Source: Synechococcus sp. A15-24 (GTDB lineage Bacteria; Cyanobacteriota; Cyanobacteriia; PCC-6307; Cyanobiaceae). From it: a stretch of 32,000 bases of DNA. Positions 2-32,000 of this stretch are shown here, in pieces. Under the pieces are notes generated by a model. That model did not search any database. It saw only the letters and a list, made by a program, of their open reading frames with translations, and was not told where the DNA came from. The DNA lies in assembly GCF_014280195.1 (NCBI RefSeq), contig NZ_CP047960.1, positions 1,350,001-1,382,000 on the forward strand, read 5' to 3'. Made by a program: the position numbers and the translations under genes. Numbering within the stretch: the first letter of the stretch is position 1; every line of letters begins with the position of its first letter.

Positions 2-1624
2 AAGGTGATCGGCATCCAGTACATCGCCACCTCGCTGTTTTTCCTGCTGGTTGGAGGTCTGCTGGCCATGATCGTGCGCGGTGAACTGATCACACCGCCG
101 GCCGATCTTGTTGATCCCACGGTTTACAACGGGCTCTACACCATGCACGGAACAGTGATGCTGTTCCTCTTTTTGTTCCCGATTCTCAACGGCTTCAACA
201 ACCTGTTGATCCCCACGATGATCGGTGCGCCGGACATGGCGTTTCCGAAGCTCAACGCTGCAGCCTTCTGGCTGGTGCCGGTGTTCGCCGTCGTGCTGAT
301 GGGCAGTTTCTTCGCCCCCGGCGGTCCAGCCTCCTCGGGCTGGTGGTCCTATCCGCCGATGAGTCTGCAGAACCCCCTGGGGCACTTCATCAACGGTGAG
401 TTCCTCTGGATCCTGGCGGTAGCGCTGTCGGGAATCTCCTCGATCATGGGCGCCGTCAATTTCGTGACGACGATCATCCGCATGCGCGCCCCCGGCATGG
501 GCTTTTTCAAGATGCCGGTGTTCGTGTGGACCGCCTGGGCCGCCCAGACGATTCAATTGATCGGCCTGCCGGCCCTCACCGGTGGCGCTGTGATGTTGCT
601 GTTTGACCTCAGCTTCGGCACCAGCTTTTTCCGGCCTGAGGGCGGTGGTGATCCGGTGCTGTTCCAACACTTCTTCTGGTTCTATTCGCACCCCGCCGTG
701 TATGTGCTGGTGCTGCCGGTGTTTGGCATCTTCTCTGAGCTGTTCCCCGTTTATGCCCGCAAGCCGCTGTTCGGCTACCGGTTCGTAGCCATCGCCTCCT
801 TCGGCATCACCTTCCTCAGCCTGATCGTGTGGGCGCACCACATGTTCTACACAGGCACACCGAACTGGATGCGCCATATCTTCATGTTCACCACGATGTT
901 GATCGCGGTGCCCACCGGCGTGAAGGTGTTCGCCTGGCTGGGAACGCTGTGGCAGGGAAATTTGAGGCTGAACACGCCGATGTTGTTCTGCCTCGGAGGC
1001 CTGTTCAACTTCATCTTCGCCGGCATCACAGGCGTGATGCTGGCCACGGTGCCGATCGACATTCACGTGGGTAACACCGCCTTTGTGGTGGCCCATTTCC
1101 ACTACGTGATCTTCAACACGATCGCCTTTGGGGTGTTCGCCGGCATCTATCACTGGTTCCCGAAATTCACCGGCCGCATGTACTACGAGGGCCTCGGCAA
1201 GGTGCACTTTGTGCTCACCTTCATCGGCGCCACCTTGAACTGGCTGCCGATTCACTGGGCCGGCCTGCTCGGCATGCCCCGCCGAGTGGCCTCCTACGAC
1301 CCGGAATTCGCCATCTGGAACGTACTGGGCAGCATCGGCGCCTTCATGCTCGGCGTTGCCTCGATCCCTTTCATTCTCAACATGGTGAGTTCCTGGGCAC
1401 GCGGCCCGAAGGCCCCTGCCAATCCCTGGCGGGCCATCGGTTTGGAGTGGTTGCTGCCCTCCCCGCCACCGGCTGAAAACTTCGAGGACGACATCCCCAC
1501 CGTGATTAGCGAGCCCTACGGCTACGGCCTGGGCCACCCCCTCGTCGAGGACGAGGAGTTCTACGTCCGCCGTTCCCAGGAGGCCTTAACCGATGACCAG
1601 CGTCAACCCCGACATTCAGCTTAA
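2..1624 (+). CDS. ctaD: cytochrome c oxidase subunit I (5' end truncated by window edge)
   Basis: The frame is open from base 2, and ..KVIGIQY.. is the conserved N-proximal region of heme-copper oxidases, so the GTG at 5 is not the real start. Polytopic hydrophobic protein with histidine motifs WAHHMF and HFHYV. Subunit III follows directly. Confidence 0.95.
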   Translation, partial: KVIGIQYIATSLFFLLVGGLLAMIVRGELITPPADLVDPTVYNGLYTMHGTVMLFLFLFPILNGFNNLLIPTMIGAPDMAFPKLNAAAFWLVPVFAVVLMGSFFAPGGPASSGWWSYPPMSLQNPLGHFINGEFLWILAVALSGISSIMGAVNFVTTIIRMRAPGMGFFKMPVFVWTAWAAQTIQLIGLPALTGGAVMLLFDLSFGTSFFRPEGGGDPVLFQHFFWFYSHPAVYVLVLPVFGIFSELFPVYARKPLFGYRFVAIASFGITFLSLIVWAHHMFYTGTPNWMRHIFMFTTMLIAVPTGVKVFAWLGTLWQGNLRLNTPMLFCLGGLFNFIFAGITGVMLATVPIDIHVGNTAFVVAHFHYVIFNTIAFGVFAGIYHWFPKFTGRMYYEGLGKVHFVLTFIGATLNWLPIHWAGLLGMPRRVASYDPEFAIWNVLGSIGAFMLGVASIPFILNMVSSWARGPKAPANPWRAIGLEWLLPSPPPAENFEDDIPTVISEPYGYGLGHPLVEDEEFYVRRSQEALTDDQRQPRHSA

Positions 1625-2189
1625 TCACACCCCGGGCCATGTGAAGCACGACGGTCACAACATGACCGGTTTCGTGATCTTCCTCTGCTCCGAGAGCGTC
1701 ATCTTCCTGGCCTTCTTCGCCGGCTACGCCGTGCTCAAGCTCACGGCTCCTCAATGGCTACCGGATGGCGTTGAGGGGTTGGAGGTACGCATGCCTCTGA
1801 TCAACAGCGTGGTGCTGGTGAGCTCCAGTTTTGTGGCCTATTTAGCCGAGCGCTATCTGCACAAGGGCAACCTCTGGGGTTTCCGGGCGGTGTGGTTCCT
1901 CACCATGGCGATGGGGTCCTACTTCGTCTACGGGCAGTACGTCGAATGGTCGGAACTCACCTTCAGCCTCAGCAGCGGTGTGTTCGGCGGGATGTTCTAT
2001 CTGCTCACGGGTTTTCACGGCCTGCATGTGATCACCGGCATCCTGCTGATGGGCCTGATGCTGGCCCGGTCGTTCCGTCCGGGAAATTACGACAAGGGCG
2101 AAATGGGCGTCGCTTCGGTGAGCCTGTTCTGGCACTTCGTCGATGTGATCTGGATCCTTCTTTTCCTCCTTATCTACGTCTGGCAGTAA
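1593..2189 (+). CDS. ctaE: cytochrome c oxidase subunit III
   Basis: 198 aa membrane protein with subunit III-like motifs (FHGLHVITG, WHFVDVIW). Overlaps the ctaD 3' end by 32 nt. Confidence 0.9.
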   Translation: MTSVNPDIQLNHTPGHVKHDGHNMTGFVIFLCSESVIFLAFFAGYAVLKLTAPQWLPDGVEGLEVRMPLINSVVLVSSSFVAYLAERYLHKGNLWGFRAVWFLTMAMGSYFVYGQYVEWSELTFSLSSGVFGGMFYLLTGFHGLHVITGILLMGLMLARSFRPGNYDKGEMGVASVSLFWHFVDVIWILLFLLIYVWQ

Positions 2190-17693: not shown

Positions 17694-17927
17694 ATGACCC
17701 AGGCCAAGCTCACCATCGGTGAACTGGAAGCGGGATACCCGCTCTATTGCAAAGCCCTGAGACGACTGCTGCAACAAGGCAAGACAGCCAAGGACATCGA
17801 GCGCACCGTCTGCTGGGGACACCTTGAAACCCTCAACCGTTGCTTACCGACGCGCTACAAGGCACCGTCCTATCTGCTGGCCCTGATCCGCAGGGATCTG
17901 GAAAAAATCAAGGAAGGGAGGGTCTAA
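17694..17927 (+). CDS. small conserved-looking hypothetical protein
   Basis: 77 aa (MTQAKLTIGELEAGYPLYCKALRRLLQQGK..). The sequence looks protein-like and GC is still core-like. I cannot name the family with confidence. Confidence 0.55.
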   Translation: MTQAKLTIGELEAGYPLYCKALRRLLQQGKTAKDIERTVCWGHLETLNRCLPTRYKAPSYLLALIRRDLEKIKEGRV

Positions 17928-17971
17928 TCAGTCTCAGACAATTCCAAGACGCTTCTCTCCCTGCATTGAGA

Positions 17972-18238
17972 GTGATTGCCTTTTCTTTCAGCACACTGTT
18001 CGAAGAAGCGAGTCAATTGGTGCGCACGATTTTTCGGAAGCCACAACGCCGCTGGAATGCATCATCAATTCTGATGATGATGTTCATTTTTTCCGCCTCA
18101 GTGATCGGGCTTGAGTGGAGTGATTCCGTAGCCCTCAGCCAGCAACAGACCATGGGAATGTCATCCGCAGGGCAGAGTCAGCCATCTCCACGGACCAGCG
18201 AGTTAGACAATTCACGATTACGAGGTCATTCCGTATAA
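17972..18238 (+). CDS. hypothetical protein (weak call, start uncertain)
   Basis: The ORF at 17840-18238 overlaps the previous gene. Possible starts are GTG at 17972 or ATG at 18074. Lower-GC region, one hydrophobic segment. Confidence 0.25.
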   Translation: MIAFSFSTLFEEASQLVRTIFRKPQRRWNASSILMMMFIFSASVIGLEWSDSVALSQQQTMGMSSAGQSQPSPRTSELDNSRLRGHSV

Positions 18239-18265
18239 AGTCATGCGAACGCGAAACGGCACACC

Positions 18266-18529
18266 ATGGAGTTCTCGATTGTCATCCTGAGCAAACACAT
18301 TTATAATTATCCCAAGATCGCGTGGACAGATTGGAAAGATACGAACAGAAAAAAAATGAAGAGCGAAGTCGATCATTGGTCAAGGGCAACCTTGTCTGGT
18401 GCCGATATCTGGGATTGCCTGGACACTAACAAGATTGATCGTCTGCACCTTGTGCAGTGGAAGCGCTCTTGTGATGACCTGCACAGCGTCAGCCTTCCGG
18501 ATCATCCGCATCCCGCCGAGAAATACTGA
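18266..18529 (+). CDS. hypothetical protein
   Basis: 87-aa ORF in a low-GC patch with no motif. Confidence 0.35.
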   Translation: MEFSIVILSKHIYNYPKIAWTDWKDTNRKKMKSEVDHWSRATLSGADIWDCLDTNKIDRLHLVQWKRSCDDLHSVSLPDHPHPAEKY

Positions 18530-18577
18530 TCTTTAAGGCCCCGCAATCAGACCAGAGCCTGTTGAAGCGCCAAAAAA

Positions 18578-18823
18578 TCAGCCATCCATCAGCCAATCAT
18601 CATCGATGGTGTCATCACTGGCATCGCTTTGAACGCCCGTCGGTTTCACACGTTCCGCCTGTTGAGGAGCCAGAGGTGGAGGGGGTGGAGGCATCGCGGG
18701 CCCGGAAAATTGATTGATCGGAATTCTTTGGCTGCCCCAACCGGCCTGATAGGGGATGACGAGCAGACGGACTGGCTCACCAGCAAAAACTGCCGTAGGA
18801 CTGATCAAGAACGTGAACACCAT
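18578..18823 (-). CDS. small secreted proline-rich protein (weak call)
   Basis: The track ORF at 18578-19123 overlaps the fibrillin gene. Internal starts at 18874, 18841 or 18823 give a signal-like N-terminus (MVFTFLISPTAVFAGEP), a PPPPPP run and an acidic C-terminus. Confidence 0.3.
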   Translation of the reverse strand: MVFTFLISPTAVFAGEPVRLLVIPYQAGWGSQRIPINQFSGPAMPPPPPPLAPQQAERVKPTGVQSDASDDTIDDDWLMDG

Positions 18824-18825
18824 CC

Positions 18826-19398
18826 ATGTCGAGGCTCGCATCCAACACCTCAATGACAAACGAACAGGACGCATTGGTTTCACTATTGCAGAGAAACCCC
18901 AATGACAAAAGCATCTCTGGGCGTATTGCGTCGCTGGAGGAGGCACAACCCGCCGACTTAAATCGTGATGCATCCCTTCTTGAGGGTGTGTGGGATTTGC
19001 GATGGAGCAGTTCAAGCCAGCCCTGGCTTCGTCAAGCACCTTGGTTGGAGAATCTTCAGGCACTGGACCTGAAGCAGAACAAAGGTTGCAACCTGCTGCG
19101 CTTGCGTGGTCCGCTCGGAACATTTGGAGCCATCAGCGTCCAAGCAACTCTGAACGTGATCAACACAAAGCGGGTTGAGGTGAAATTCTTCAAGGGGGGC
19201 TGGCTGGGGCCGACGTTGCCTGGTCTTGGCCAAATCAAGTTATTGCGTGACGTTCAACAAAGCTTTCCCGCCTGGCTCGACATCACAGTGTTGAATCAAC
19301 AACTACGAATCTGTCGAGGCAACGCGGGAACAACATTTGCGTTACTCAAACTTGATACGATCGACATCAAGGATCTGATTGAGCAAGACAACAATTAG
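18826..19398 (+). CDS. PAP/fibrillin-family protein
   Basis: Fibrillin-like pattern LLEGVWDLRWSSS .. VEVKFFKGGW .. WLDITVLNQQLRICRGNAGTTFALLK. An alternative start at 18853 is possible. Confidence 0.75.
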   Translation: MSRLASNTSMTNEQDALVSLLQRNPNDKSISGRIASLEEAQPADLNRDASLLEGVWDLRWSSSSQPWLRQAPWLENLQALDLKQNKGCNLLRLRGPLGTFGAISVQATLNVINTKRVEVKFFKGGWLGPTLPGLGQIKLLRDVQQSFPAWLDITVLNQQLRICRGNAGTTFALLKLDTIDIKDLIEQDNN

Positions 19399-19416
19399 CC
19401 TGCTGCCGTAGTCGAA

Positions 19417-20205
19417 TCAATTCCTTCCCACAATGACAGGTGGAGTCGTTCCGCCATTGAAGGACGGAACTACTTGTGTTTGCCCATCCCATTTATCAAG
19501 AAACAGCTTATACAGAACGCTGTTATTGAGGGACTGACTCAACGTTTCAAACTTGATTGCTTCCTGCTCGGCAATCTCAACTTCTGTCTTTGCGCGCAAG
19601 AGCTGCTGTTGTGCGATTTGCTTCTGTTCAATGGCAGCCCTGTACTCTTCAGCGATCTGCAGTCCAGTGATGTCAAGACCTCTCACGACAACATAATCAA
19701 ATTCACTGAGCTCCAGTGAGACGCTTTCCTGCACAAGGGAAGATATGGTGTTCCAATCCGTCGCGATCGTATCCAGCTCATACTTTGAAAAGACTGACTT
19801 CAGTGATTTCAGCAGCGATGGCTGGATCACCCTTGCATAGATTGCAGAGTCGTCAGTAGCGATCGTGCTGTAAATCCTGGGAGCCTCAGATGGCTTAACG
19901 GCATATTTAACCGTTGCCGTTGCCTCGATCACCTGGAGATCCTTCGTCAGCGTCGAGAACTTTTCAGGTATGACCTGCGTTCTTACACTGAAGGAATGCG
20001 TGCTCTGCAGGAATGGAATCTTGAGGTTCAACCCAGGCTGCCTTGGCTCATCCGAAACCTTGCCAAGCGTCGTCACAACACCCACCTCACCCGCAGGGAC
20101 GACAAACAAACTGGACAGAGCCGCAATACCTCCAAAGAATATTGACGACGCAGTGATGACTATTTTCGAAACATTCTCAGGATTTTGATAAGAGCGCATT
20201 ACCAC
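19417..20205 (-). CDS. SPFH/band-7 (prohibitin-like) membrane protein
   Basis: N-terminal TM helix, then an SPFH domain (VPAGEVGVVTTLGKV..PGLNLKIPF) and a coiled-coil-like tail (AEEYRAAIEQKQIAQQQLLRAKTEVEIAEQEA). Confidence 0.85.
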   Translation of the reverse strand: MVMRSYQNPENVSKIVITASSIFFGGIAALSSLFVVPAGEVGVVTTLGKVSDEPRQPGLNLKIPFLQSTHSFSVRTQVIPEKFSTLTKDLQVIEATATVKYAVKPSEAPRIYSTIATDDSAIYARVIQPSLLKSLKSVFSKYELDTIATDWNTISSLVQESVSLELSEFDYVVVRGLDITGLQIAEEYRAAIEQKQIAQQQLLRAKTEVEIAEQEAIKFETLSQSLNNSVLYKLFLDKWDGQTQVVPSFNGGTTPPVIVGRN

Positions 20206-20497
20206 AAAAACTCAATGTTGTTACGGTAACAAACGAATAGTCGCGCACTCCGAAATTACACAATAAAAAAATAATAGCATTCGATTAAGGTGTAATAACA
20301 ACTTCTACGCTCAAGCAACAGTCGATTCAGCCATCACCAGCGCCCATAGCACCAGCCACAGAAATCGATGGGCAGCGCAATAGAAACCCGAGGAATGAAT
20401 AGCGCTAAATTTTGCACTTTGGTGCGCGATTGGCTTGTACTTGTGAAACCCAGTGCAATTTGTGCAGGTGTGGGAAATCCACCGGCTGAAAACCTAG

Positions 20498-20570
20498 TGG
20501 AGCCAAGGAGACTCGAACTCCTGACCCCCTGCATGCCATGCAGGTGCTCTACCAGCTGAGCTATGGCCCC
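20498..20570 (-). tRNA. tRNA-Ala (anticodon GGC)
   Basis: The reverse complement folds as a 73-nt cloverleaf: GGGGCCA-TA-GCTC-AGCTGGTA-GAGC-A-CCTGC-ATGGCAT-GCAGG-GGGTC-AGGAG-TTCGAGT-CTCCT-TGGCTCC-A. The G3:U70 alanine identity pair is present. CCA is not encoded. Confidence 0.95.
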
Positions 20571-20635: not shown

Positions 20636-21283
20636 TCACACCTGACGCCACACCGCCACCAACCGGCCCTGCACCTCCACCTGCTCCGCCGGCAGCTCGA
20701 TCGGGTCGTAGGAAGGGTTAGCCGCCTCGAGCACAACCGCCGCCCCTTTGCGGTGGAAATGCTTCAGGGTTGTGCCGCTTCCCGCCACCAGGGCACTCAC
20801 AACGGTGCCGTTGCGCAGGCGCTGCGGATCAGGCACAGGCTCCATCAACACCACGTCGCCATCAGCGATGTGAGAATCCACCATCGAATCACCGTTCACC
20901 GTCAGGGCAAACAGCCCGCGGGTCTCGAGGACCGGCGCGAGATCAAGGTGCTCCTGCAAGTCATCAAAGGCCGTCACCAGGCCACCAGCAGCCACGGCAC
21001 CCAGCACCGGGATGCCAGCAGCCGCAGCCATCTCGCCCAGCAATTGCAGAGTGCGGGCCTGACCTTCCTGCCAGGTGATCCACCCTTTCTGTTGGAGATG
21101 CCGCAAGCGGCTCTGGATCGGTGCTGGAGAACGCAGCCCCATCGCCTGCATCATCTGACGGATGGACGGGCTGTGACGATGCGTGCCGATGTACTCCGCC
21201 AGCCAGTCGTACAGCTCCTGCTGGGCGGAGGTCAATGGCTCTGGGGGTGAGCTGGTCACAGAAGAAGACAACGAACAATACAT
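20636..21283 (-). CDS. lexA: LexA repressor (S24 peptidase)
   Basis: wHTH N-domain (QQELYDWLAEYIGTHRHSPSIRQMMQAMGL) and S24 catalytic Ser in VNGDSM. The track ORF to 21406 is probably over-extended. The first ATG is at 21283, and a TTG at 21235 (MTSAQQELY) would give a typical protein of about 199 aa. Confidence 0.88.
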   Translation of the reverse strand: MYCSLSSSVTSSPPEPLTSAQQELYDWLAEYIGTHRHSPSIRQMMQAMGLRSPAPIQSRLRHLQQKGWITWQEGQARTLQLLGEMAAAAGIPVLGAVAAGGLVTAFDDLQEHLDLAPVLETRGLFALTVNGDSMVDSHIADGDVVLMEPVPDPQRLRNGTVVSALVAGSGTTLKHFHRKGAAVVLEAANPSYDPIELPAEQVEVQGRLVAVWRQV

Positions 21284-21290
21284 TTGTACC
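21277..21290 (-). promoter_or_regulatory. candidate cyanobacterial-type LexA box
   Basis: The minus strand reads GGTACAAATGTATT, which matches 13 of 14 positions of the published cyanobacterial consensus RGTACNNNDGTWCB. It contains the inverted repeat TACA-AA-TGTA and covers the ATG at 21283. Confidence 0.35.
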
Positions 21291-21338
21291 GACGGCGCTC
21301 GAGCTGCGCAAGATCCCAGCCTTGATTGCGGCCAAGAC

Positions 21339-21611
21339 ATGTGGCAGGACCAGCCGAAACACAGCGACAAGCCAGAGAAGGCCGGTGGCGAAGGCTGGCT
21401 GATCAACCCAGCACAGCAGAAGCTGGTGCAGTTTCAGCCCGGTTCAGCCACAGCCCACGCTCAGTGGGTGGCCATTCACACATTCCACCTCTTGCCTGGT
21501 GAAGCACCAACGCTGATCACAGGGCGCCGGATGCTGCGTCATAACGCCATTGAGGCCTGGCAGACCATGCTCAAAACCGGATGGACACGATGTCATCCAC
21601 CAAGGAGATGA
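21339..21611 (+). CDS. DUF1651-like picocyanobacterial protein
   Basis: GWLINP..(about 45 aa)..TGRRMLRHNAIEAWQTMLKTGWTRCHPP resembles the DUF1651 pattern. ATG at 21339 is chosen because the ORF from 21183 overlaps lexA. Confidence 0.55.
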   Translation: MWQDQPKHSDKPEKAGGEGWLINPAQQKLVQFQPGSATAHAQWVAIHTFHLLPGEAPTLITGRRMLRHNAIEAWQTMLKTGWTRCHPPRR

Positions 21612-26934: not shown

Positions 26935-28032
26935 TCAGCCCCCGAGCCGCAAGGAGAGCAACCAGTCATCACCGATGGGCCGGGGAGGCTGCCACGCGCC
27001 ACTGAGCACCTGATCCATGGCGGTGAAACCCAGTTCCCCCAGAGGCGTTCGTGCTCTTGTTCCACCCATCAGTTTCGGGGCCAGCACGGCAGCCACCTCC
27101 TGCACACAGCCCTGACGGATGGCCGCAGCCGCCAGCTCTGGTCCGCACTCCCACAGCACCTGATTGCAGCCCCGGGCTGCCAGGTGTTGCATCAGCGGCA
27201 GGGGCTCGCACTGTTCCAGCTCCAGCCGTTCCGGACCGTTCGGAGCCTGCTTGCCGGCAGCCTCCGGGCCATGGGCCACCAGGGTCGCGGCGGATGCTGT
27301 GTCCCATAGCTGTGCCTCGGCGGGAAGGTCCAGACCACTGCTAAGCACAACCCGAAGCGGTTCCGGATCGCGATGGCCGCGGCTGGTGAGCAGGGGGTCA
27401 TCGGCGCGAACAGTTCCACCGCCGACGAGCACCGCATCGCATCCCGCCCGCAACTGATGCACCCAGCGACGGGAGTCGGCACCACTGATCCACTGACTGG
27501 CGCCATTGGGCAACGCGGTTCTGCCATCGAGCCCCATCGCCCACTTGAGCACCCCCCAAGGGCGACCCGTGCGGACGCGATGCAGAAAGGCCCGGTTCTG
27601 CTCTGCGGCCTCCTGCCGAAGCACACCGGTGATCACCTCAACACCGGCCTGCCGCAGCTGAGCAATCCCGCCACCAGCCACCCTCGGATCCGGATCCTCC
27701 AACGCCACCACGACCCTGACCACCCCGGCCTGCAGAACAGCGCGGGTGCAGGGAGGTGTGCGGCCGTGGTGGCAGCAAGGTTCCAGGGTCACGATCAACG
27801 TGCCACCGGCGGCGGCGGTTCCGGCCTGGGCCAGAGCCCCAACCTCGGCATGGGGCTCACCCGAGCGGGCATGGAACCCCTCCCCCACCAATCGGCCCTC
27901 ACGGTTGAGAACAAGAGCTCCCACAAGGGGATTGGGGCTGGTGCGACCTTCAGCCAGCGCAGCCAACGCCAGGGCCCGGCGCATCCAGAGATCCCACATC
28001 AGCTCAGGGGCAGGTCCTGCAATGACCGCCAC
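26935..28032 (-). CDS. ribD: bifunctional riboflavin biosynthesis deaminase/reductase RibD
   Basis: Deaminase zinc motifs HAEVGAL and PCCHHGRTPPC, plus a C-terminal reductase domain. An alternative ATG at 27999 forms a TGATG 1-nt overlap with the upstream stop. Confidence 0.93.
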   Translation of the reverse strand: MAVIAGPAPELMWDLWMRRALALAALAEGRTSPNPLVGALVLNREGRLVGEGFHARSGEPHAEVGALAQAGTAAAGGTLIVTLEPCCHHGRTPPCTRAVLQAGVVRVVVALEDPDPRVAGGGIAQLRQAGVEVITGVLRQEAAEQNRAFLHRVRTGRPWGVLKWAMGLDGRTALPNGASQWISGADSRRWVHQLRAGCDAVLVGGGTVRADDPLLTSRGHRDPEPLRVVLSSGLDLPAEAQLWDTASAATLVAHGPEAAGKQAPNGPERLELEQCEPLPLMQHLAARGCNQVLWECGPELAAAAIRQGCVQEVAAVLAPKLMGGTRARTPLGELGFTAMDQVLSGAWQPPRPIGDDWLLSLRLGG

Positions 28033-28484
28033 TCACCCACCACGTAGGGAGGCACCGGTAGCTCCGTGAAAACCCCTGGCAACATCAGACGCAGGGGTCG
28101 GTTGTTGCTGAGGTCATCCAGAAGGGGGTCGAGGGCGAATTCCGCGGCCGCCTCACGGCCATCGGTGGCCAGGGCAGGGTTAGCGAGGGTGATGTCGTCC
28201 AGGGCCCAGGTCCTGCGCCCGGCCTCCACCTGAAGACTTACCGGATGGTCGAGGCGGAGTTTGCCGGGATAACCAACGATGCGGAGCACCACGGGTTCAC
28301 CGGGCTTCCCCTCGCGGTAGGCCACCGCCTGCCAGCTGTCGTAGTCCAGATCGCGAAGGCTCTCGAGGCTGCGCACCATCCGCGTGCCGTTATCGGATTC
28401 GTGCTCATGCACCTGGGCCCATCCCTGGGGTGCCGCCGTGAACAGCACCAGAACGGCGATCAAACAGCAGAGCAGCCGGCGCAT
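27999..28484 (-). CDS. secreted conserved hypothetical protein
   Basis: 161 aa with a clear signal peptide (MRRLLCCLIAVLVLFTAAPQGWA). Tightly coupled to ribD. I cannot name the family. Confidence 0.65.
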   Translation of the reverse strand: MRRLLCCLIAVLVLFTAAPQGWAQVHEHESDNGTRMVRSLESLRDLDYDSWQAVAYREGKPGEPVVLRIVGYPGKLRLDHPVSLQVEAGRRTWALDDITLANPALATDGREAAAEFALDPLLDDLSNNRPLRLMLPGVFTELPVPPYVVGEWRSLQDLPLS

Positions 28485-28639
28485 CGGAGATCGGTCAGTG
28501 GGCGGATTCTCACAGTCCGGCTTGGAGCCCCGTGGAATTCACAGATAATTCTCCTATGAATTTTTAGTCAGCCGGGGAACTCGGCGAGATCTTCAAATCA
28601 CTAGGTATCGGACTGGGCGTCAGTCAGCTCAGTGCCGGT

Positions 28640-28960
28640 TCACTGAATGGCAGGTTTCAGTTGACCGGCAACGCTGTCCTGCCCCTGATTTCGATCAAAA
28701 CCGACCAGATGCTGGTCTGTCAGGGCGACCGCAGGCCTGGTTTTCTCTCCTTCTCCATTAACAGTCGAGGTGACCACCCCCTGGTGAGGGGTGAAGAGGT
28801 GTCGCCCCTCAGCATCCATGGCTTTCAAAGCAGCCTGAAGGACTCGTACTTCGTGCTTCAGCCAGGTTGTGAAATCCAGGTGACCATGGTCTGCAAACAG
28901 CGGTTGCAACGGCTGGCGATCGCCACCAACGAACAGCGGTCCTAATGCAAGCCACAGCAA
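28640..28960 (-). CDS. hypothetical protein (weak, TTG start only)
   Basis: 106-aa ORF. There is no ATG or GTG start upstream, and an in-frame stop lies 11 codons upstream. May be degenerate. Confidence 0.3.
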   Translation of the reverse strand: MLWLALGPLFVGGDRQPLQPLFADHGHLDFTTWLKHEVRVLQAALKAMDAEGRHLFTPHQGVVTSTVNGEGEKTRPAVALTDQHLVGFDRNQGQDSVAGQLKPAIQ

Positions 28961-29216
28961 CCAAGGGAGATTCCCGCCACGACTGAGTTCTCAAGTGTGT
29001 TCTCAGCCTTATAGAGCGTTGCAAAGCAGTTGGACTCGACAGATGACTATCTAACTAACCAAATTGAGAATGTTGTCACTAGTCAGTTGAATAGCAATTC
29101 GGTGAAGCCTCCTGTTGATACAGCGTTTGAGGCCCTCTACACTGTGGGTTGGGATCAGAGTACCTATCCATTGTCAGGGTGGATTTGAATAGACTCAGCG
29201 CATTAAATGTCTTAGC

Positions 29217-29243
29217 CTCGTCAGCAATGGCGGGTTTTTTATT
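29217..29243 (+). terminator. intrinsic terminator inside repeat copy A
   Basis: Stem CTCGTC/GGCGGG (two G:U pairs), loop AGCAAT, then TTTTTTATT. Confidence 0.55.
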
Positions 29244-29315
29244 GCCTCCTGCGCTTAGCAGGACTGCCTCTGCTTGACTGCCCTGACGGCGTGCTGGGAA
29301 GGTTTTGGCGGTGGG
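29217..29315 (+). repeat. island repeat copy A (full: terminator module plus 3' module)
   Basis: cgtcagcaatggcgggttttttattgcctcctgcgcttagcaggactgcctctgcttgactgccctgacggcgtgctgggaaggttttggcggtgg. It has 3 mismatches to copy D over about 96 nt (counted by eye). Confidence 0.9.
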
Positions 29316-29703
29316 TTAGTCGTTAGGTCTGCAGCGGGGAACAATTCAGGCAGTCACGTCTGACCCATGTTTCAAGACACCCGCATCGCTTTGTTCCTAC
29401 TGGCAGAACTGGTTGCAGCACTGCAAGCCAATGACCCTGACAAGTTCAAGCGGTGGCTGTATGGCGGCATTCAAACCTAGGAAAGCCTGCAGTGGAAGAG
29501 TTGCTGCTGGATTGGATTGACCTGTTCATCACACGAGTCGAGAGGGACAGGATGGTGGCTTGGCACCTGGGAGTGAGCCTTTGAATTTTCTTGGGAGACC
29601 AGCGCAGTTCTTTTTGGCAGTCAGGTTCAATGTTTAATTGCAGACAACTTGCTGTTCTCAAATTCGGCTATGGCTACCTTGATAACAGTTTTTCCACAGA
29701 CCT

Positions 29704-30021
29704 TTGCAGCACTACCTCATCGTTTGGAAGTTCCCTACCGTTGAAGGATCCTGGGAGTCATGCCCAGGTTTTGCCGGTTACATCAATGCAGGAGCACCTG
29801 GCGACAACTTCGATGGATTTGAATTAAAGTACCGAGTTTGCGAACCAGTCAGCGGCAGCGGTGTGGCAATCGCTGAAGCAAGCGATATCGGTAAAGTGTG
29901 GGCTCATCTTGGCCCTTGGATTAAGGGCTACGGAATAGAGTTTGACGTAAAAGCTGTCGTTTCTGATTCTCAGTTTGCTGCCATGTGGCCTGGCGTAGAA
30001 GCCGCTGCGGCTGTGGAATAA
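29704..30021 (+). CDS. DUF3303-like small protein
   Basis: 105 aa. TTG is the only available start, because a stop lies 7 codons upstream. The overall pattern (MQHYLIVWKFP..; ..WAHLGPWIKGYGIEFDVKAVV) resembles DUF3303. The family call is tentative. Confidence 0.5.
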   Translation: MQHYLIVWKFPTVEGSWESCPGFAGYINAGAPGDNFDGFELKYRVCEPVSGSGVAIAEASDIGKVWAHLGPWIKGYGIEFDVKAVVSDSQFAAMWPGVEAAAAVE

Positions 30022-30062
30022 AGAGCCTCAGTCTCCAGTCCATCTCCCGACAGAACACTCAC

Positions 30063-30089
30063 CCCGTCAGCAATGGCGGGTTTTTTATT
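30063..30089 (+). terminator. intrinsic terminator inside repeat copy B
   Basis: Stem CCCGTC/GGCGGG (one G:U pair), loop AGCAAT, then TTTTTTATT. It begins 42 nt after the DUF3303-like stop. Confidence 0.65.
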
Positions 30090-30160
30090 GCCTCCTGCGC
30101 CTAGCCGGCCTGCCTCTGTGTGACTGCCCTGATGGCGTGCTGGGAAAGCTTTGGCGGTGG
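30063..30160 (+). repeat. island repeat copy B (full, most diverged)
   Basis: Same architecture as copies A and D, with about 9 mismatches to D over about 96 nt (counted by eye). Lies between the convergent DUF3303-like and DUF1330 genes. Confidence 0.9.
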
Positions 30161-30171
30161 CTTCGGGGTAA

Positions 30172-30474
30172 TCAGTGACCAGCGTGATCGCCTTCTTCAA
30201 TGATTGACAGTGAGACTTTGGAGTGAGGCTGACGGAACTTCCGCATCTCTTGGTATTCAGGGGCGTCGTAAGCGGCCTTGGCTGAAGCTAGAGAGTCAAA
30301 CTCGATGATCACGGTCAAGTGACCTGCGTCACCTTCACGAACATCGGTTTTGAGATCTCTGCAAAGAAAGCGAGCGTTGAACTTCGCCAGGTAAGGCTCA
30401 ACAGCTTGGAGGTAAGGACCCATCCCTTCTGGGTTAGTTACAGCGCCTGAGATATTCCAGTAACCCTTAGCCAT
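30172..30474 (-). CDS. DUF1330 domain protein
   Basis: MAKGYWNISGAVTNPEGMGPYLQAVEPYLAKFNARFL...VIIEFDSLASAKAAYDAPEYQEM is a close match to the DUF1330 pattern. Confidence 0.85.
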   Translation of the reverse strand: MAKGYWNISGAVTNPEGMGPYLQAVEPYLAKFNARFLCRDLKTDVREGDAGHLTVIIEFDSLASAKAAYDAPEYQEMRKFRQPHSKVSLSIIEEGDHAGH

Positions 30475-30538
30475 TGCTCGATAGAAAGAGTATGTTTAGT
30501 ACCTCATGGTTTTCCAGCCAAACATGTGTCGATGATGA

Positions 30539-30595
30539 CTGCGTGACTGCCCTGACGGCGTGCTGGGAAGGTTCTGGCGGTGGTTGCGTGACTGA
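30539..30595 (+). repeat. island repeat copy C (partial: 3' module only)
   Basis: ctgcgtgactgccctgacggcgtgctgggaaggttctggcggtggttgcgtgactga is identical (57/57) to 31526-31582 of copy D. The terminator module is absent. Confidence 0.9.
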
Positions 30596-30719
30596 CTCAC
30601 CCAGTTAGGGGAGAAGGGCGGCCGAATAAATCCCTCAGTTAGGGGGGCGCTTTCCAGATGAAACGGCGATGGTAAGTTTTGAAGAGGCATGAGCCTCACA
30701 ATTCAATTGTCTACTATTT

Positions 30720-31445
30720 ATGTCTAATACAATTACGTTGGACTACAGGAAATTTAAGAATCCAGTGAGGATGGATCCGTCTGCACCGCCTAATTATTTT
30801 GAATTAGATAATTCTTCATTCACAGCAACTAAGCGCTCTTTCGGTGGAAATGGTACTGCGTAGATAGACGGAAACAAATTTGATGTGCGCATTTCTGTTA
30901 GAGGTAATTTCGACCTAGACTCGGAGGATGCATTTGCTAGGTCTAAGTTCAATTCTATTATTTATTCATTCAAACGGGAAGGAGCCATTACGATAAGTGG
31001 ATTTAATTCTCGTGTTGAAGATACAGATTCTGCACTTGATTCATTGTTTGAGGCAGATAACAAGATCTACGGATCAGAGTTTAATGACAAACTGCTCGGT
31101 GACGATGGCGATGACATGATTTACGGAGGTCGAGGAGATGACAAAATTAAAGGCGGTGCAGGAGATGACCTGATTCATGGTGGGAATTGGACGAAAAGGG
31201 TTAACAAGGTTTGGGGTAACTCAGGTCGTGATACGTTTGTAATTGATGATGGCGCTTGGGGAACAGTTATCAAAGACTTTGATATCACCGAGGACAGAAT
31301 AGGTTTGTCACGCATGAACGATTGGGGTAATAAGTATTCATGGGAAATACGTGGAAAAAATACTTACATCGACGACGGCGAATATTGGCAAGCAAAAATA
31401 AAAGGACGTCATGACTTAAGTCTTGCGAATACTGTTGAGATTTAG
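30720..31445 (+). pseudogene. RTX-like gene interrupted by a single in-frame TAG at 30861-30863
   Basis: ATG at 30720 opens 47 sense codons (MSNTITLDYRKFKNPVRMDPSAPPNYFELDNSSFTATKRSFGGNGTA), then TAG, and the same frame continues IDGNKFDVRISVRGNF.. to 31445. I checked this codon by codon. Confidence 0.45.
30885..31445 (+). CDS. RTX-type calcium-binding repeat protein (downstream segment of an interrupted frame)
   Basis: Tandem nonapeptide repeats LLGDDGDDMIYGGRGDDKIKGGAGDDLIHGG (GGxGxD type). The GTG at 30885 is in frame with an upstream 47-codon ORF. Confidence 0.6.
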   Translation: MRISVRGNFDLDSEDAFARSKFNSIIYSFKREGAITISGFNSRVEDTDSALDSLFEADNKIYGSEFNDKLLGDDGDDMIYGGRGDDKIKGGAGDDLIHGGNWTKRVNKVWGNSGRDTFVIDDGAWGTVIKDFDITEDRIGLSRMNDWGNKYSWEIRGKNTYIDDGEYWQAKIKGRHDLSLANTVEI

Positions 31446-31472
31446 ACGCTTCGCCCTTTCTTGGCATCTTCT

Positions 31473-31499
31473 CCCGTCAGCAATGGCGGGTTTTTTATT
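31473..31499 (+). terminator. intrinsic terminator inside repeat copy D
   Basis: Stem CCCGTC/GGCGGG, loop AGCAAT, then TTTTTTATT. It begins 28 nt after the RTX-like stop. Confidence 0.65.
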
Positions 31500-31582
31500 G
31501 CCTCTTGCGCTTAGCAGGACTGCCTCTGCGTGACTGCCCTGACGGCGTGCTGGGAAGGTTCTGGCGGTGGTTGCGTGACTGA
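31473..31582 (+). repeat. island repeat copy D (full, longest)
   Basis: Full terminator module plus a 3' module extended by ttgcgtgactga. Lies between the convergent RTX-like gene and the minus-strand gene ending at 31599. Confidence 0.9.
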
Positions 31583-31598
31583 AATGGCTCAAGCGTGG

Positions 31599-32000
31599 TT
31601 AGCTCGCTGGTTGTTGAGAATCGGGTTTAAGCCTTGCCCTTTGCTTCTCCAGCAACTGCTTGGCCTTGTCGTAGCGATGTTGAAAGTTGCTCTTGATTGC
31701 CGAGAGCTGTCTAGTCCGCATCTGCGCCGTGTCTCCGTCCTCTCTCTTGGCTTCATAAACCCGATCGCATAGCTGCCAATACAGCTCGATGATTCCGATC
31801 TCTCGGGCGTAATCCTTTTGCTTGCGCAGGATGATCGCCACCCGCTTGAAGTAAGCAGGAGCAGGGAACCAAATGTTGATCTGAGACGACTCCATCTCGG
31901 CCTTGCAACAGGCCAGCATCAAATCAAGATCGTGCTTGTTTTCCGGAGCGTCTTTGAGAACTTCCCAAGTCTGCTTCCCACCGACAAGCGTCTGAGGAAA
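31599..32000 (-). CDS. hypothetical protein, 5' end beyond window
   Basis: The track ORF starts at a TTG at 31922, but the same frame stays open with no stop up to base 32000 (..GGKQTWEVLKDAPENKHDLDLMLACCKAEM..). The gene therefore probably continues past the window. Helical repeat-like segment APAYFKRVAIILRKQKDYAREIGIIELYW. Confidence 0.55.
   Translation of the reverse strand, partial: FPQTLVGGKQTWEVLKDAPENKHDLDLMLACCKAEMESSQINIWFPAPAYFKRVAIILRKQKDYAREIGIIELYWQLCDRVYEAKREDGDTAQMRTRQLSAIKSNFQHRYDKAKQLLEKQRARLKPDSQQPAS

What the first reader, a model, noticed from the sequence alone, without database searches (positions are those of the whole stretch)
29217..31582. Cassette-like array: a bipartite direct repeat of about 100 nt sits at every gene junction of a low-GC island
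Four copies of one element lie in the same orientation within 2.4 kb: A at 29217-29315, B at 30063-30160, C (partial) at 30539-30595 and D at 31473-31582. Each of the four junctions between five consecutive small, functionally unrelated modules holds exactly one copy. The modules are a possible 52-codon ORF ending at 29188, the DUF3303-like gene, the DUF1330 gene, the RTX-like frame, and the partial minus-strand gene. Full copies consist of a canonical intrinsic terminator (CCCGTC-AGCAAT-GGCGGG-TTTTTT) fused to a conserved downstream module of about 70 nt. The only copy lacking the terminator half (C) sits in the only divergent, promoter-side junction. I saw no other copy in the remaining 29 kb. 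Repeats delimiting one- or two-gene units suggest three options: recombination or attachment sites of a cassette-acquisition system that is not integron-like in sequence, a strain-specific intergenic mobile repeat, or a multi-copy small-RNA locus.
Basis: seen in the sequence. Interest (0 to 1): 0.8.

Follow-up and report, generated by a model that had tools for sequence, protein, structure and literature searches.

The report
Gene-cassette array bounded by attachment-site repeats
The four repeats are leftover copies of the last 18 codons of a small conserved gene that seems to serve as a docking site where a picocyanobacterium has captured single-gene DNA cassettes one after another, which gives a testable route for gene exchange in organisms with few known transfer mechanisms.

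Summary
In detail: four co-oriented repeats, one at each gene junction, three of them with a terminator hairpin, and none elsewhere in the window.

It is the 3' end (…LRDCPDGVLGRFWRWLRD*) of a roughly 68-aa ORF, here called T (consensus MNRDYIDWL…). T has no Pfam family and was found only in picocyanobacterial metagenomes.

- **T as a fixed platform.** In relatives, full-length T sits upstream of variable units. Two contigs are 97% identical through T and diverge at the end of the core.
- **Discrete units.** The DUF1330 unit (423 bp) and the DUF3303 unit recur with the same ends but different neighbours in other contigs.
- **Native end of the array.** Copy D plus the last gene matches full-length T plus its flank in marine contigs.
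- **Fresh-looking insertion.** The RTX unit is flanked by perfect 57-bp direct repeats.
- **Candidate recombinases.** In marine contigs a divergent tyrosine integrase lies just downstream of T. A T fragment also ends a tycheposon-like element.

Best reading (about 0.6): these are attachment-site repeats left by serial site-specific capture of small cassettes at the 3' end of T. The logic resembles tycheposons and integrons, but the target is a protein-coding gene and the sites do not resemble attC.

The window contains no integrase and no T 5' part, and its left edge is a truncated AraC gene. The sRNA and MITE readings are rejected.

Novelty: new variant of a known kind.

The parts
28550..28943 (+). 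5' remnant (about 131 codons) of an AraC/HTH_18 family gene. The island's left breakpoint falls at 28943/28944.
   Evidence: Window 27000-28943 is 95-96% identical to sister-strain contigs L016-L020, which continue with the rest of a 326-aa HTH_18 gene and a GH116 gene. The sequences diverge abruptly at 28944, and the sister strains have no core-like sequence there.
28944..29216 (+). Unit 1: 46% GC, with a possible 52-codon ORF at 29030-29188. Its left end is missing.
   Evidence: ORF list. No Pfam hit. No homolog in any fetched locus. GC.
29217..29269 (+). Terminator module A: hairpin 29217-29234, T-run, and about 30 nt of spacer.
   Evidence: Terminator scan; repeat family D1.
29270..29326 (+). 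Core A, a T-gene 3' fragment reading LLDCPDGVLGRFWRWVSR*.
   Evidence: The RWVSR* tail followed by the leader recurs in L004, L005, L027 and L036.
29332..29547 (+). Leader module with a 37-codon ORF (29367-29480). This is a second recurrent module, at the left end of unit 2.
   Evidence: 75-94% identical copies in L004 (two copies), L005, L024 (two copies), L025, L027 and L028, and an 87% identical copy in L036.
29704..30021 (+). DUF3303 gene, the cargo of unit 2.
   Evidence: Pfam PF11746, E=3e-13. Leader, DUF3303, terminator module and core together are 93-96% identical to L024-L026, where DUF411 follows instead of DUF1330.
30063..30115 (+). Terminator module B.
30116..30178 (+). Core B, a T-gene 3' fragment reading LCDCPDGVLGKLWRWLRGNQ*. 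Its stop lies 2 nt from the stop of the convergent DUF1330 gene.
   Evidence: The same tail and junction occur in L004. Full-length T with this tail type is followed by DUF1330 in L036.
30172..30474 (-). DUF1330 gene, the cargo of unit 3. Core start to next core start is 423 bp.
   Evidence: Pfam PF07045, E=3e-23. The unit is 92% identical in L004 and 80% identical in L036, where the spacing is also 423 bp. In both it is followed by a different unit than in the window.
30539..30595 (+). Core C, a T-gene 3' fragment reading LRDCPDGVLGRFWRWLRD*. It is 57/57 identical to core D and has no terminator module.
30596..31472 (+). Unit 4, 42% GC. It has a left-end module of about 115-125 nt (30596 to about 30708) that follows full-length T in L001/L002, then an RTX-repeat gene (30720-31445) with an in-frame TAG at 30861-30863.
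   Evidence: Window 30540-30708 is 80% identical to L001 2230-2407. Pfam PF00353. The ORFs at 30720-30863 and 30885-31445 share one frame.
31473..31525 (+). Terminator module D.
31526..31582 (+). Core D, read as the native 3' end of T, contiguous with its native flank.
   Evidence: Window 31527-32000 is 84% identical to marine contigs L033-L035, where the same flank is preceded by full-length T (…RWIRD*). Homology starts exactly at (C/G)TGCG(T/G)GAC.
31599..32000 (-). 3' part of a gene of a 212-232-aa family of unknown function, convergent with T. Probably the chromosomal flank.
   Evidence: 85 homolog clusters with no Pfam family. In L033 the homolog is next to UPF0102 and a SPOUT methyltransferase.

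Best explanation
The repeats are attachment-site copies. Their 45-57 nt core is the 3' end of a small conserved gene (T, about 68 aa) that serves as a chromosomal docking site.

Small circular units recombine site-specifically with the 3' end of T. Most units carry one gene. Many also carry a terminator and about 30 nt of spacer next to their own copy of the site. Each insertion leaves one more co-oriented T 3' fragment. The array therefore reads unit | core | unit | core … and ends with the original T 3' end and its native flank, which is copy D.

The catalyst is most likely a tyrosine recombinase acting in trans. Divergent tyrosine integrases lie next to T, or travel with T fragments, in related contigs. 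None is present in this window. The array's T-proximal end has been lost at a breakpoint inside an AraC gene.

Shown here: the core's identity as a T fragment; the recurrence of the units; the positions of the breakpoints; and the association with integrases in relatives.

Inferred: that the junctions are made by site-specific recombination; that the crossover lies in roughly CTGCGTGACTGCCCTGA(CGGCG) at the 5' edge of the core; and that the units without an integrase are mobilised in trans rather than being decayed elements.
For: 1. The core is coding sequence of T.
- In metagenome contigs the core is preceded by …PLPDEIDLEHCEEMQQRWVVRD. Differences between contigs are mostly synonymous.
- There are 28 clusters of about 68-aa proteins at 90% identity and 59 clusters at 50% identity, many of them fragments.

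2. T is a stable platform with variable units downstream.
- L001 and L030 are 97% identical over 2272 nt up to the end of the core and then diverge.
- Full-length T is followed by DUF1330 (L036), the DUF3104-type junction carrying DUF3303 (L030), the C-type module (L001), the 212-aa gene (L034/35), or a 78-aa ORF plus an integrase (L010-L015).

3. Units are discrete and recur.
- Core, DUF1330 and core appear in the window, in L004 (92%) and in L036 (80%; 423-bp spacing in the window and L036, 417 bp in L004), each with different neighbours.
- Leader, DUF3303, terminator module and core appear in L024-L026 (93-96%), followed there by DUF411.

4. Junctions share no homology on the left side. The terminator module, the DUF1330 5' region and T coding sequence all join the core at the same CTGCG. 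Homologous recombination cannot produce such joins.

5. Copy D plus its flank matches full-length T plus the same flank in L033-L035. C and D are 57/57 identical direct repeats around the RTX unit.

6. Copies are co-oriented in every locus that has more than one: the window (4), L004 (2), L005 (2), L006 (2) and L036 (2).

7. Recombinases occur in relatives.
- A 414-aa protein that converges on T about 300 bp downstream hits PHROG_1 integrase at E=8e-8.
- A T fragment starting at nt 75 travels with it behind another unit in L022/L023.
- In L027, a partial tmRNA-like 3' end, a 188-aa Phage_integrase and a DUF3987 primase-helicase are followed by a T 3' fragment plus the leader.

8. The units have heterogeneous GC (42-51%), whereas the repeats have host-like GC of 57-65%.
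Against: - The window has no integrase, ParA or DUF3987 remnant and no T 5' part. Catalysis is therefore unproven for this array.
- Its left end is an illegitimate junction inside AraC.
- Other recurrent modules also sit at some junctions without a core. Examples are the leader and a terminator-hairpin variant in L024. So not all the mosaicism passes through this site.
- No clear inverted-repeat core-type binding sites were found by inspection.
- No second att copy was found downstream of the integrase-bearing marine elements within the DNA available.
- Neither T nor the core was found in 185,579 representative genomes, in viral contigs, or in phage and plasmid collections. All comparative evidence therefore rests on short metagenome contigs, which can be chimeric at repeats.
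- Polymorphisms inside the core are too few to place the crossover firmly.
Confidence: 0.6

Rival explanations
1. There is no dedicated recombinase. The T 3' fragment, the leader and the terminator module are portable patches of homology. General homologous recombination, gene conversion and illegitimate events shuffle island genes between strains. The repeats are passive scars.
For: - Several different recurrent modules occur at junctions: the leader (9 related copies) and a terminator-hairpin variant without a core in L024.
- The 57/57 identity of C and D could reflect gene conversion.
- The left edge of the island is an illegitimate junction.
- The window has no integrase.
Against: - Sequences to the left of the core are unrelated (terminator module, DUF1330 5' region, T coding), yet all join it at the same CTGCG. 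Homologous exchange needs homology on both sides.
- Copies are strictly co-oriented.
- Integrases sit next to T, or travel with T fragments, in relatives.
Confidence: 0.22
2. The bipartite element is a non-autonomous mobile intergenic repeat (MITE- or REP-like) that inserts between genes.
For: It is short (about 100 nt), intergenic and multi-copy, at 92-97% identity. Bipartite copies also exist in other metagenomes (P0045 and P0046).
Against: - No terminal inverted repeats or target-site duplications.
- All copies are co-oriented.
- Half of the element is the 3' end of a protein-coding gene, with variable 5' extents up to the full gene.
- No copy elsewhere in 29 kb, and none in representative genomes.
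Confidence: 0.06
3. The repeats encode a multi-copy small RNA or a cis-regulatory RNA.
For: The sequence is conserved across marine and freshwater metagenomes, and a terminator is adjacent.
Against: - No Rfam match at gathering or at E<=10.
- Folding is no better than shuffled sequence on either strand, with z about 0.1-0.6.
- The terminator lies upstream of the core, not downstream.
- No promoter-like site in the module.
- Variation follows codon positions of T.
Confidence: 0.03
4. The cross-contig 'shuffling' is an artefact of metagenome assemblers joining reads at the repeat. Only the window's own array is real, and it could be a local duplication product.
For: Most comparative contigs are short (1-6 kb). 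Some come from SPAdes assemblies whose k-mer size is near the repeat length.
Against: - The same junctions recur in independent samples and assemblers. DUF3303 followed by DUF411 is seen in three contigs from three samples. DUF1330 followed by the leader is seen in L004 and L036. T followed by the 212-aa gene is seen in three contigs.
- Repeat copies differ from each other, so exact-k-mer misjoins are unlikely.
- Cores within the window carry different T alleles linked to their flanks, which argues against local duplication.
Confidence: 0.05

Closest known systems
Tycheposons and tRNA-seeded genomic islands of Prochlorococcus/Synechococcus (Hackl et al., bioRxiv 10.1101/2020.12.28.424599; Grebert et al. 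2022, PMC8995045)
   Same: - Serial site-specific integration at one site, which pushes older material deeper into a low-GC island.
- Co-oriented partial copies of the target gene separate the units.
- Tyrosine recombinases are involved.
- Cargo of small genes of unknown function, in a picocyanobacterial host.
- One related contig (L027) has the typical layout of partial tRNA/tmRNA-like end, tyrosine recombinase, primase-helicase and cargo, and carries a T fragment at the replication/cargo boundary.
   Different: - The repeated site is the 3' end of a small protein-coding gene, not a tRNA or tmRNA.
- The units here are 0.4-1.4 kb, hold single genes, and have no integration or replication module.
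- Three units share a conserved terminator-containing end module.
- The described tycheposon target sites are seven tRNA/tmRNA genes.
Integrons (IntI, attI, attC cassette arrays), including chromosomal superintegrons and their VCR-type repeats
   Same: - A fixed platform followed by an array of mostly single-gene units without an integrase.
- Each unit is bounded by one co-oriented repeat of 60-110 nt.
- The same unit is found in different positions and arrays.
- Unit GC is heterogeneous.
   Different: - The repeat has no attC-like imperfect palindrome or folded hairpin.
- No IntI-type integrase. Only a 27-residue match of one fragment to the integron-integrase model, far below its cut-off.
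- The site is a gene fragment, and units carry a T 3' end.
- One gene is inverted within its unit.
Integrative elements that target the 3' end of protein-coding genes and restore it with their own copy (established for many tyrosine-integrase islands; compare the dusA-specific integrases, PMC4482086, which target a gene's 5' end)
   Same: - The target is a protein-coding gene.
- The incoming DNA supplies a replacement gene end, giving variant C-terminal tails of T.
- The displaced native end is left at the far side.
   Different: Here there are multiple tiny units in tandem rather than one large element, and no integrase within the array.
pdif modules (Xer-site-flanked gene modules on Acinetobacter plasmids). 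Recalled from general knowledge and not tested against the literature here.
   Same: Small discrete gene modules without their own recombinase, bounded by short recombination sites, and found in varied contexts.
   Different: pdif modules are flanked by oppositely oriented XerC/D and XerD/C sites of 28 bp. Here the sites are co-oriented, 45-100 nt long and derived from a gene.

Membership tests
Integron cassette array | attC sites: imperfect inverted repeats (R''/L''…L'/R') that fold as single-stranded hairpins | tested here: not met
   There are no inverted repeats within the element. The MFE of either strand is no better than shuffles (z 0.1-0.6), apart from the small terminator hairpin.
Integron cassette array | An IntI-type tyrosine integrase with an adjacent attI at the head of the array | tested here: not met
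   The window has no integrase. The integrases in related loci match generic Phage_integrase/Xer models. The integron-integrase model TIGR02249 is matched over only 27 residues at 19.8 bits, against a cut-off of 265.
Integron cassette array | Co-oriented repeats bounding mostly single-gene units that recur in different arrays | tested here: met
Tycheposon / tRNA-seeded island | Attachment site within a tRNA or tmRNA gene, with partial tRNA copies between units | tested here: not met
   The repeat is a fragment of the protein-coding gene T. The window's only tRNA, Ala-GGC at 20497-20570, is 8.6 kb away and has no partial copies.
Tycheposon / tRNA-seeded island | Site-specific tyrosine (or large serine) recombinase, with or without a replication module, on the element | tested here: inconclusive
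   Absent from the window. Present next to T or T fragments in related contigs: the 414-aa protein (PHROG_1, E=8e-8), and YR188 plus DUF3987 in L027.
Tycheposon / tRNA-seeded island | Serial integration at one site, producing co-oriented att fragments and ending with the native gene end and flank | tested here: met
   Copies are co-oriented. Copy D plus its flank corresponds to full-length T plus the same flank in L033-L035. The RTX unit is flanked by 57-bp perfect direct repeats.
MITE / REP-type intergenic repeat | Terminal inverted repeats or palindromic units, target-site duplications, and dispersed copies in both orientations | tested here: not met
   No TIRs. All four copies are co-oriented and confined to 2.4 kb. 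Genome-wide dispersal cannot be tested because the genome is unavailable; representative genomes contain no copy.
Known RNA family (Rfam) / structured sRNA | A match to a covariance model, or conserved secondary structure | tested here: not met
   The substitution pattern follows codons.
T small-ORF family (MNRDYIDWL…RDCPDGVLGRLWRW; no Pfam family) | Sequence match of the core to the C-terminal 18 codons, in frame and ending at a stop | tested here: met
   tblastn gives 83-93% identity over 14-18 residues for all four copies. Each copy ends in a stop codon in that frame.

The most novel reading that the evidence does not exclude
Picocyanobacteria have a previously undescribed cassette-capture system that works like an integron.
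- Single-gene units without an integrase carry a conserved composite site of about 100 nt (terminator, spacer, and the 3' end of the small gene T).
- The units are inserted and excised as circles at the 3' end of the platform gene T by a divergent tyrosine recombinase acting in trans.
- The same units are shared between marine and freshwater lineages.
Probability: 0.35. Interest if true: 0.8.

Novelty: new variant of a known kind. Interest (0 to 1): 0.58.

Why it matters
Marine and freshwater picocyanobacteria keep most of their flexible genes in islands, yet they lack plasmids, conjugation and competence. How single genes enter and leave those islands is only partly explained by tycheposons at tRNA genes.

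This locus points to a second docking site, a small protein-coding gene. It also points to much smaller units that look like cassettes, with a recognisable end module.

If confirmed, it gives a sequence tag (the T 3' end, and the bipartite site) with which cassette traffic could be tracked in metagenomes. It also gives a defined pair of sites and candidate recombinases for biochemical testing.

Tried and rejected
- **Rfam** at gathering threshold and at E<=10 on the window and on 12 related loci. Nothing on the repeats. Only a tRNA in the window, Cyano-2 in L006 and L030, and a weak partial tmRNA end in L027.
- **Folding** of six repeat versions on both strands: no excess stability.
- **Exact-pattern scan of 185,579 representative genomes** for the core: 0 hits. 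A protein-pattern scan for T in the same collection found 112 pattern hits, none confirmed.
- **Viral contigs** by protein and by DNA: none. **Phage and plasmid collections** by tblastn: none.
- **Exact-protein look-ups** of the window's DUF1330 and DUF3303 products: not on record. The source contig could therefore not be extended beyond 32000.
- **A second att copy** downstream of the integrase-bearing marine elements: none within the 10 kb available.
- **The terminator module** in loci L001-L023: absent. It was later found only through a protein search using a spurious antisense ORF.
- **Structure prediction of T**: pLDDT 60, helical, too poor for a fold search.
- **Pfam, NCBIfam and PDB searches** of the 414-aa protein: nothing. 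Only PHROGs recognises it as an integrase.
- **Hammerhead-like CUGAUGA in T**: considered and rejected, because the variation is synonymous and coding.
- **Frame-2 reading of the core as part of DUF3104**: considered and rejected, because there is no homology upstream of GGAR.
- **Synechococcus UW86**: has a homolog of the last gene but no T or core.
Full report
**Observation.**
- The repeat finder returns three 96-nt copies (29219-29314, 30065-30160, 31475-31570; 92-97% identical) and a four-member 57-nt family (29270, 30116, 30539, 31526), all on the + strand (alignment).
- A 25-nt core pattern allowing three mismatches hits only these four sites in 32 kb. No shuffle gave a hit.
- The hairpin CCCGTCAGCAATGGCGGG followed by T6 is called as an intrinsic terminator in A, B and D.
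- Pfam confirms DUF3303, DUF1330 (minus strand) and RTX repeats in the intervening genes.
- GC drops from about 0.62 to about 0.49.
- C lacks the terminator and lies between two divergent genes. C and D are identical over all 57 nt.

**What the core is.** A metagenome scan for the 22-mer TGCCCTGAYGGCGTGCTGGGAA gave seven contigs.
- In none of them is the core preceded by the terminator module. It is preceded by a conserved stretch that reads, in frame with the core, …PLPDEIDLEHCEEMQQRWVVRDCPDGVLGRLWRWLRE*. Differences between contigs are mostly synonymous.
- L001 carries the whole ORF of 68 aa.
- A protein search found 28 clusters of about 68-aa proteins (MNRDYIDWLTSLPNNRGVRDRQINVWMSGYAPLPDEIDLEH..EMQ.RWVVRDCPDGVLGRLWRWVR*). 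They have no Pfam domain and come almost only from metagenomes.
- An exhaustive profile search found 59 clusters at 50% identity. Nearly all are under 170 aa, and many are N- or C-terminal fragments.

I call this gene T. Each of the four window copies is the last 18-20 codons of T, in frame and ending at a stop. The window has no T 5' part.

T has no match in Pfam, PHROGs or NCBIfam. Its predicted structure is helical but of low confidence. Rfam finds nothing on the repeats, and neither strand folds better than shuffled sequence.

**T is a platform and what follows it varies.**
- L001 and L030 are lake metagenome contigs. They are 97% identical over 2272 nt, which covers the upstream genes and T, and they diverge at the end of the core (…GGCGGTG|).
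- Full-length T is followed by different things in different contigs:
  - the C-type module in L001;
  - the DUF3104-type junction carrying DUF3303 and Cyano-2, in L030;
  - DUF1330 in L036;
  - a 212-aa gene in L034/L035;
  - a 78-aa ORF plus a 414-aa protein in the marine contigs L010-L015.
- The C-terminal tail of T changes with what follows (RWVSR*, RWLRE*, RWLRGNQ*, RWIRD*, RCQEPKG…, CPDG-GSLIAS…). Each downstream unit therefore brings its own version of the end of T.

**The units are discrete and recur.**
- The stretch core B, DUF1330, core C (window 30120-30583) is 92% identical to L004 3885-4342 and 80% identical to L036 2304-2765. Core-to-core spacing is 423 bp in the window and in L036.
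- In both of those contigs the next unit is the A-type tail plus leader, not the RTX unit. The preceding sequence is T coding sequence, not a terminator module.
- Leader, DUF3303, terminator module and core (window 29334-30174) are 93-96% identical to three contigs from three samples (L024-L026). DUF411 follows there instead of DUF1330.
- These contigs were found by searching with a spurious antisense ORF that spans the bipartite repeat. A Tara peptide (P0045) shows a D-like bipartite copy as well. The bipartite form therefore exists outside this genome.
- Copies are co-oriented in every locus that has more than one.
- Unit GC is 46, 51, 49.5 and 42%, against 57-65% for the repeats.

**The two ends of the window's array.**
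- Right end. Window 31527-32000 (core D plus the convergent last gene) is 84% identical to L033-L035, where the same flank is preceded by full-length T. The homology begins exactly at (C/G)TGCG(T/G)GAC. In L033 the far side of that gene is UPF0102 and a SPOUT methyltransferase, which I take to be chromosomal core genes. I therefore read D plus its flank as the native 3' end of T with its native neighbour. This is where the displaced original gene end should lie after insertions.
- The RTX unit (30596-31525) is flanked by perfect 57-bp direct repeats, the signature of an integrated element.
- Left end. Window 27000-28943 is 95-96% identical to sister-strain contigs that continue with the rest of an AraC-family gene and GH116. 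The window diverges at 28944 with no core-like sequence in the sisters. The T-proximal part of the array has therefore been lost in a separate rearrangement, along with any recombinase it carried.

**Mechanism.** Sequences to the left of the core are unrelated to each other. They are the terminator module in A, B, D and L024-L026, the DUF1330 5' region in C, L004 and L036, and T coding sequence elsewhere. All of them nevertheless join the core at the same CTGCG.
- Homologous recombination cannot create such joins. A site-specific crossover at or near that point can.
- The marine integrase-bearing variant diverges after …CCTGACGGCG. The B-type CTGAT polymorphism goes with the downstream unit.
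- This brackets a putative crossover within about 17-21 nt, CTGCGTGACTGCCCTGA(CGGCG). That placement is an inference from few sites.

Candidate catalysts exist in relatives.
- A 414-aa protein converges on T about 300 bp downstream. It matches PHROG_1 integrase (E=8e-8) and has an R…H-x-x-R…H…Y-like C-terminus.
- In L022/L023 a T fragment starting at nt 75 travels with it behind an unrelated adh_short unit. Fragments starting at that position are common in the family.
- L027 shows a partial tmRNA-like 3' end, a 188-aa Phage_integrase, a DUF3987 primase-helicase, and then a T 3' fragment plus the leader. That is a tycheposon-like element carrying this site at its replication/cargo boundary.

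I therefore propose serial site-specific capture of small circular units at the 3' end of T. In this model the terminator module plus the core is the unit's own site when circular. Each unit would supply a T 3' end at its left side.

**Rivals.**
- Passive homology patches shuffled by general recombination (0.22). This fits the existence of other recurrent modules: the leader, in 9 related copies, and a terminator variant without a core in L024. It does not explain the one-sided junctions or the co-orientation.
- MITE/REP-like repeat (0.06). No TIRs, and the repeat is a gene fragment.
- sRNA (0.03). No structure, a coding substitution pattern, and the terminator on the wrong side.
- Assembly chimeras (0.05). 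Several junctions recur across samples and assemblers, but this caveat applies to all the comparative data.

**Comparison with what is known.**
- The logic is that of tycheposon or tRNA-island accretion (bioRxiv 10.1101/2020.12.28.424599; PMC8995045) and of integron arrays.
- It is not a member of either. The site is not a tRNA or tmRNA. It is not attC-like, and no IntI is present.
- Elements that target and restore the 3' end of a protein-coding gene are well known. Arrays of units 0.4-1.4 kb long, without an integrase and with a shared terminator-bearing end module, were not described in the papers I could search.

**Limits.**
- Neither T nor the core occurs in 185,579 representative genomes, in viral contigs, or in phage and plasmid collections.
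- The source contig could not be extended.
- No circular intermediate or recombinase activity has been shown.

**Verdict.** The cassette/attachment-site option is supported, with a sharper identity for the repeat. I rate it a new variant of a known kind, with interest 0.58.

Noticed in passing
window 30720-31445: The RTX-repeat gene is one reading frame interrupted by an in-frame TAG at 30861-30863. The ORFs 30720-30863 and 30885-31445 share a frame. It is either a pseudogene or a read-through candidate.
   Followed up: partly
window 29332-29547; L004 1089-1173 and 4360-4489; L005 2599-2725; L024 1349-1577 and 3209-3425; L025 1383-1587; L027 6383-6453; L036 2770-2900: A second recurrent module. 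This 'leader' begins at GCGGGGAACA.TTCAGGCAGTCACGTCTGACC and holds a semi-conserved 37-codon ORF (M.QDTRIALFLLAELVAALQANDPD.FKRWLYGG). It precedes different cargo genes, sometimes directly after a T fragment and sometimes without one.
   Followed up: partly
L006 2515-2712 (-) and L030 4053-4249 (-): A Cyano-2 RNA (RF01702, 183-196 bits) lies inside the unit that follows T in two lake contigs. A known cyanobacterial sRNA is thus carried as cargo in these arrays.
   Followed up: no
L006 1407-3748: A perfect repeat with 1760-bp spacing. It contains an ABM-domain gene, a T 3' fragment and the next unit, and it runs to the contig end. It could be a tandem duplication of two units, like the 'tandem repeat junctions' reported for tycheposons, or an assembly effect.
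   Followed up: partly
window 28550-28943: An AraC/HTH_18 regulator is truncated after about 131 codons. Sister strains (95-96% identical DNA) carry the full gene followed by GH116, a sulfotransferase and other genes. The island therefore replaces or interrupts chromosomal DNA here.
   Followed up: yes
window 17700-20570: A second low-GC stretch (0.50-0.55) abuts the 3' end of tRNA-Ala(GGC) at 20497-20570 (minus strand), one of the tRNA types reported as tycheposon targets. No partial tRNA copy and no integrase were seen. LexA lies at 20636-21406.
   Followed up: partly
L024 about 1590-1640 (reverse strand): A variant of the same terminator hairpin (CCCCATCAGCAATGGCGGGG) ends an SWM_repeat gene unit. 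It joins the leader directly, without any T core. The hairpin module therefore also exists independently of the core.
   Followed up: no
L010-L015, upstream of T: A ParA-like ATPase (231 aa; CbiA/AAA_31) is divergent from T in the marine contigs. In L014 it is preceded by a 187-aa Phage_integrase fragment, which suggests T may itself sit on or beside a larger mobile element there.
   Followed up: no
window 30590-30645: Two 22-nt direct repeats (GACTGACTCACCCAGTTAGGGG and GAATAAATCCCTCAGTTAGGGG) lie just after core C, each with a small CCC…GGG hairpin. They are partly conserved in L001/L002 and L005.
   Followed up: no
window 21183-21611: An ORF whose C-terminus (…RRMLRHNAIEAWQTMLKTGWTRCHPPRR) resembles an ORF at L006 1067-1387. 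By eye it looks like the DUF1651 proteins annotated next to the T-linked integrases in L008, L022 and L023. This was not tested with Pfam.
   Followed up: no
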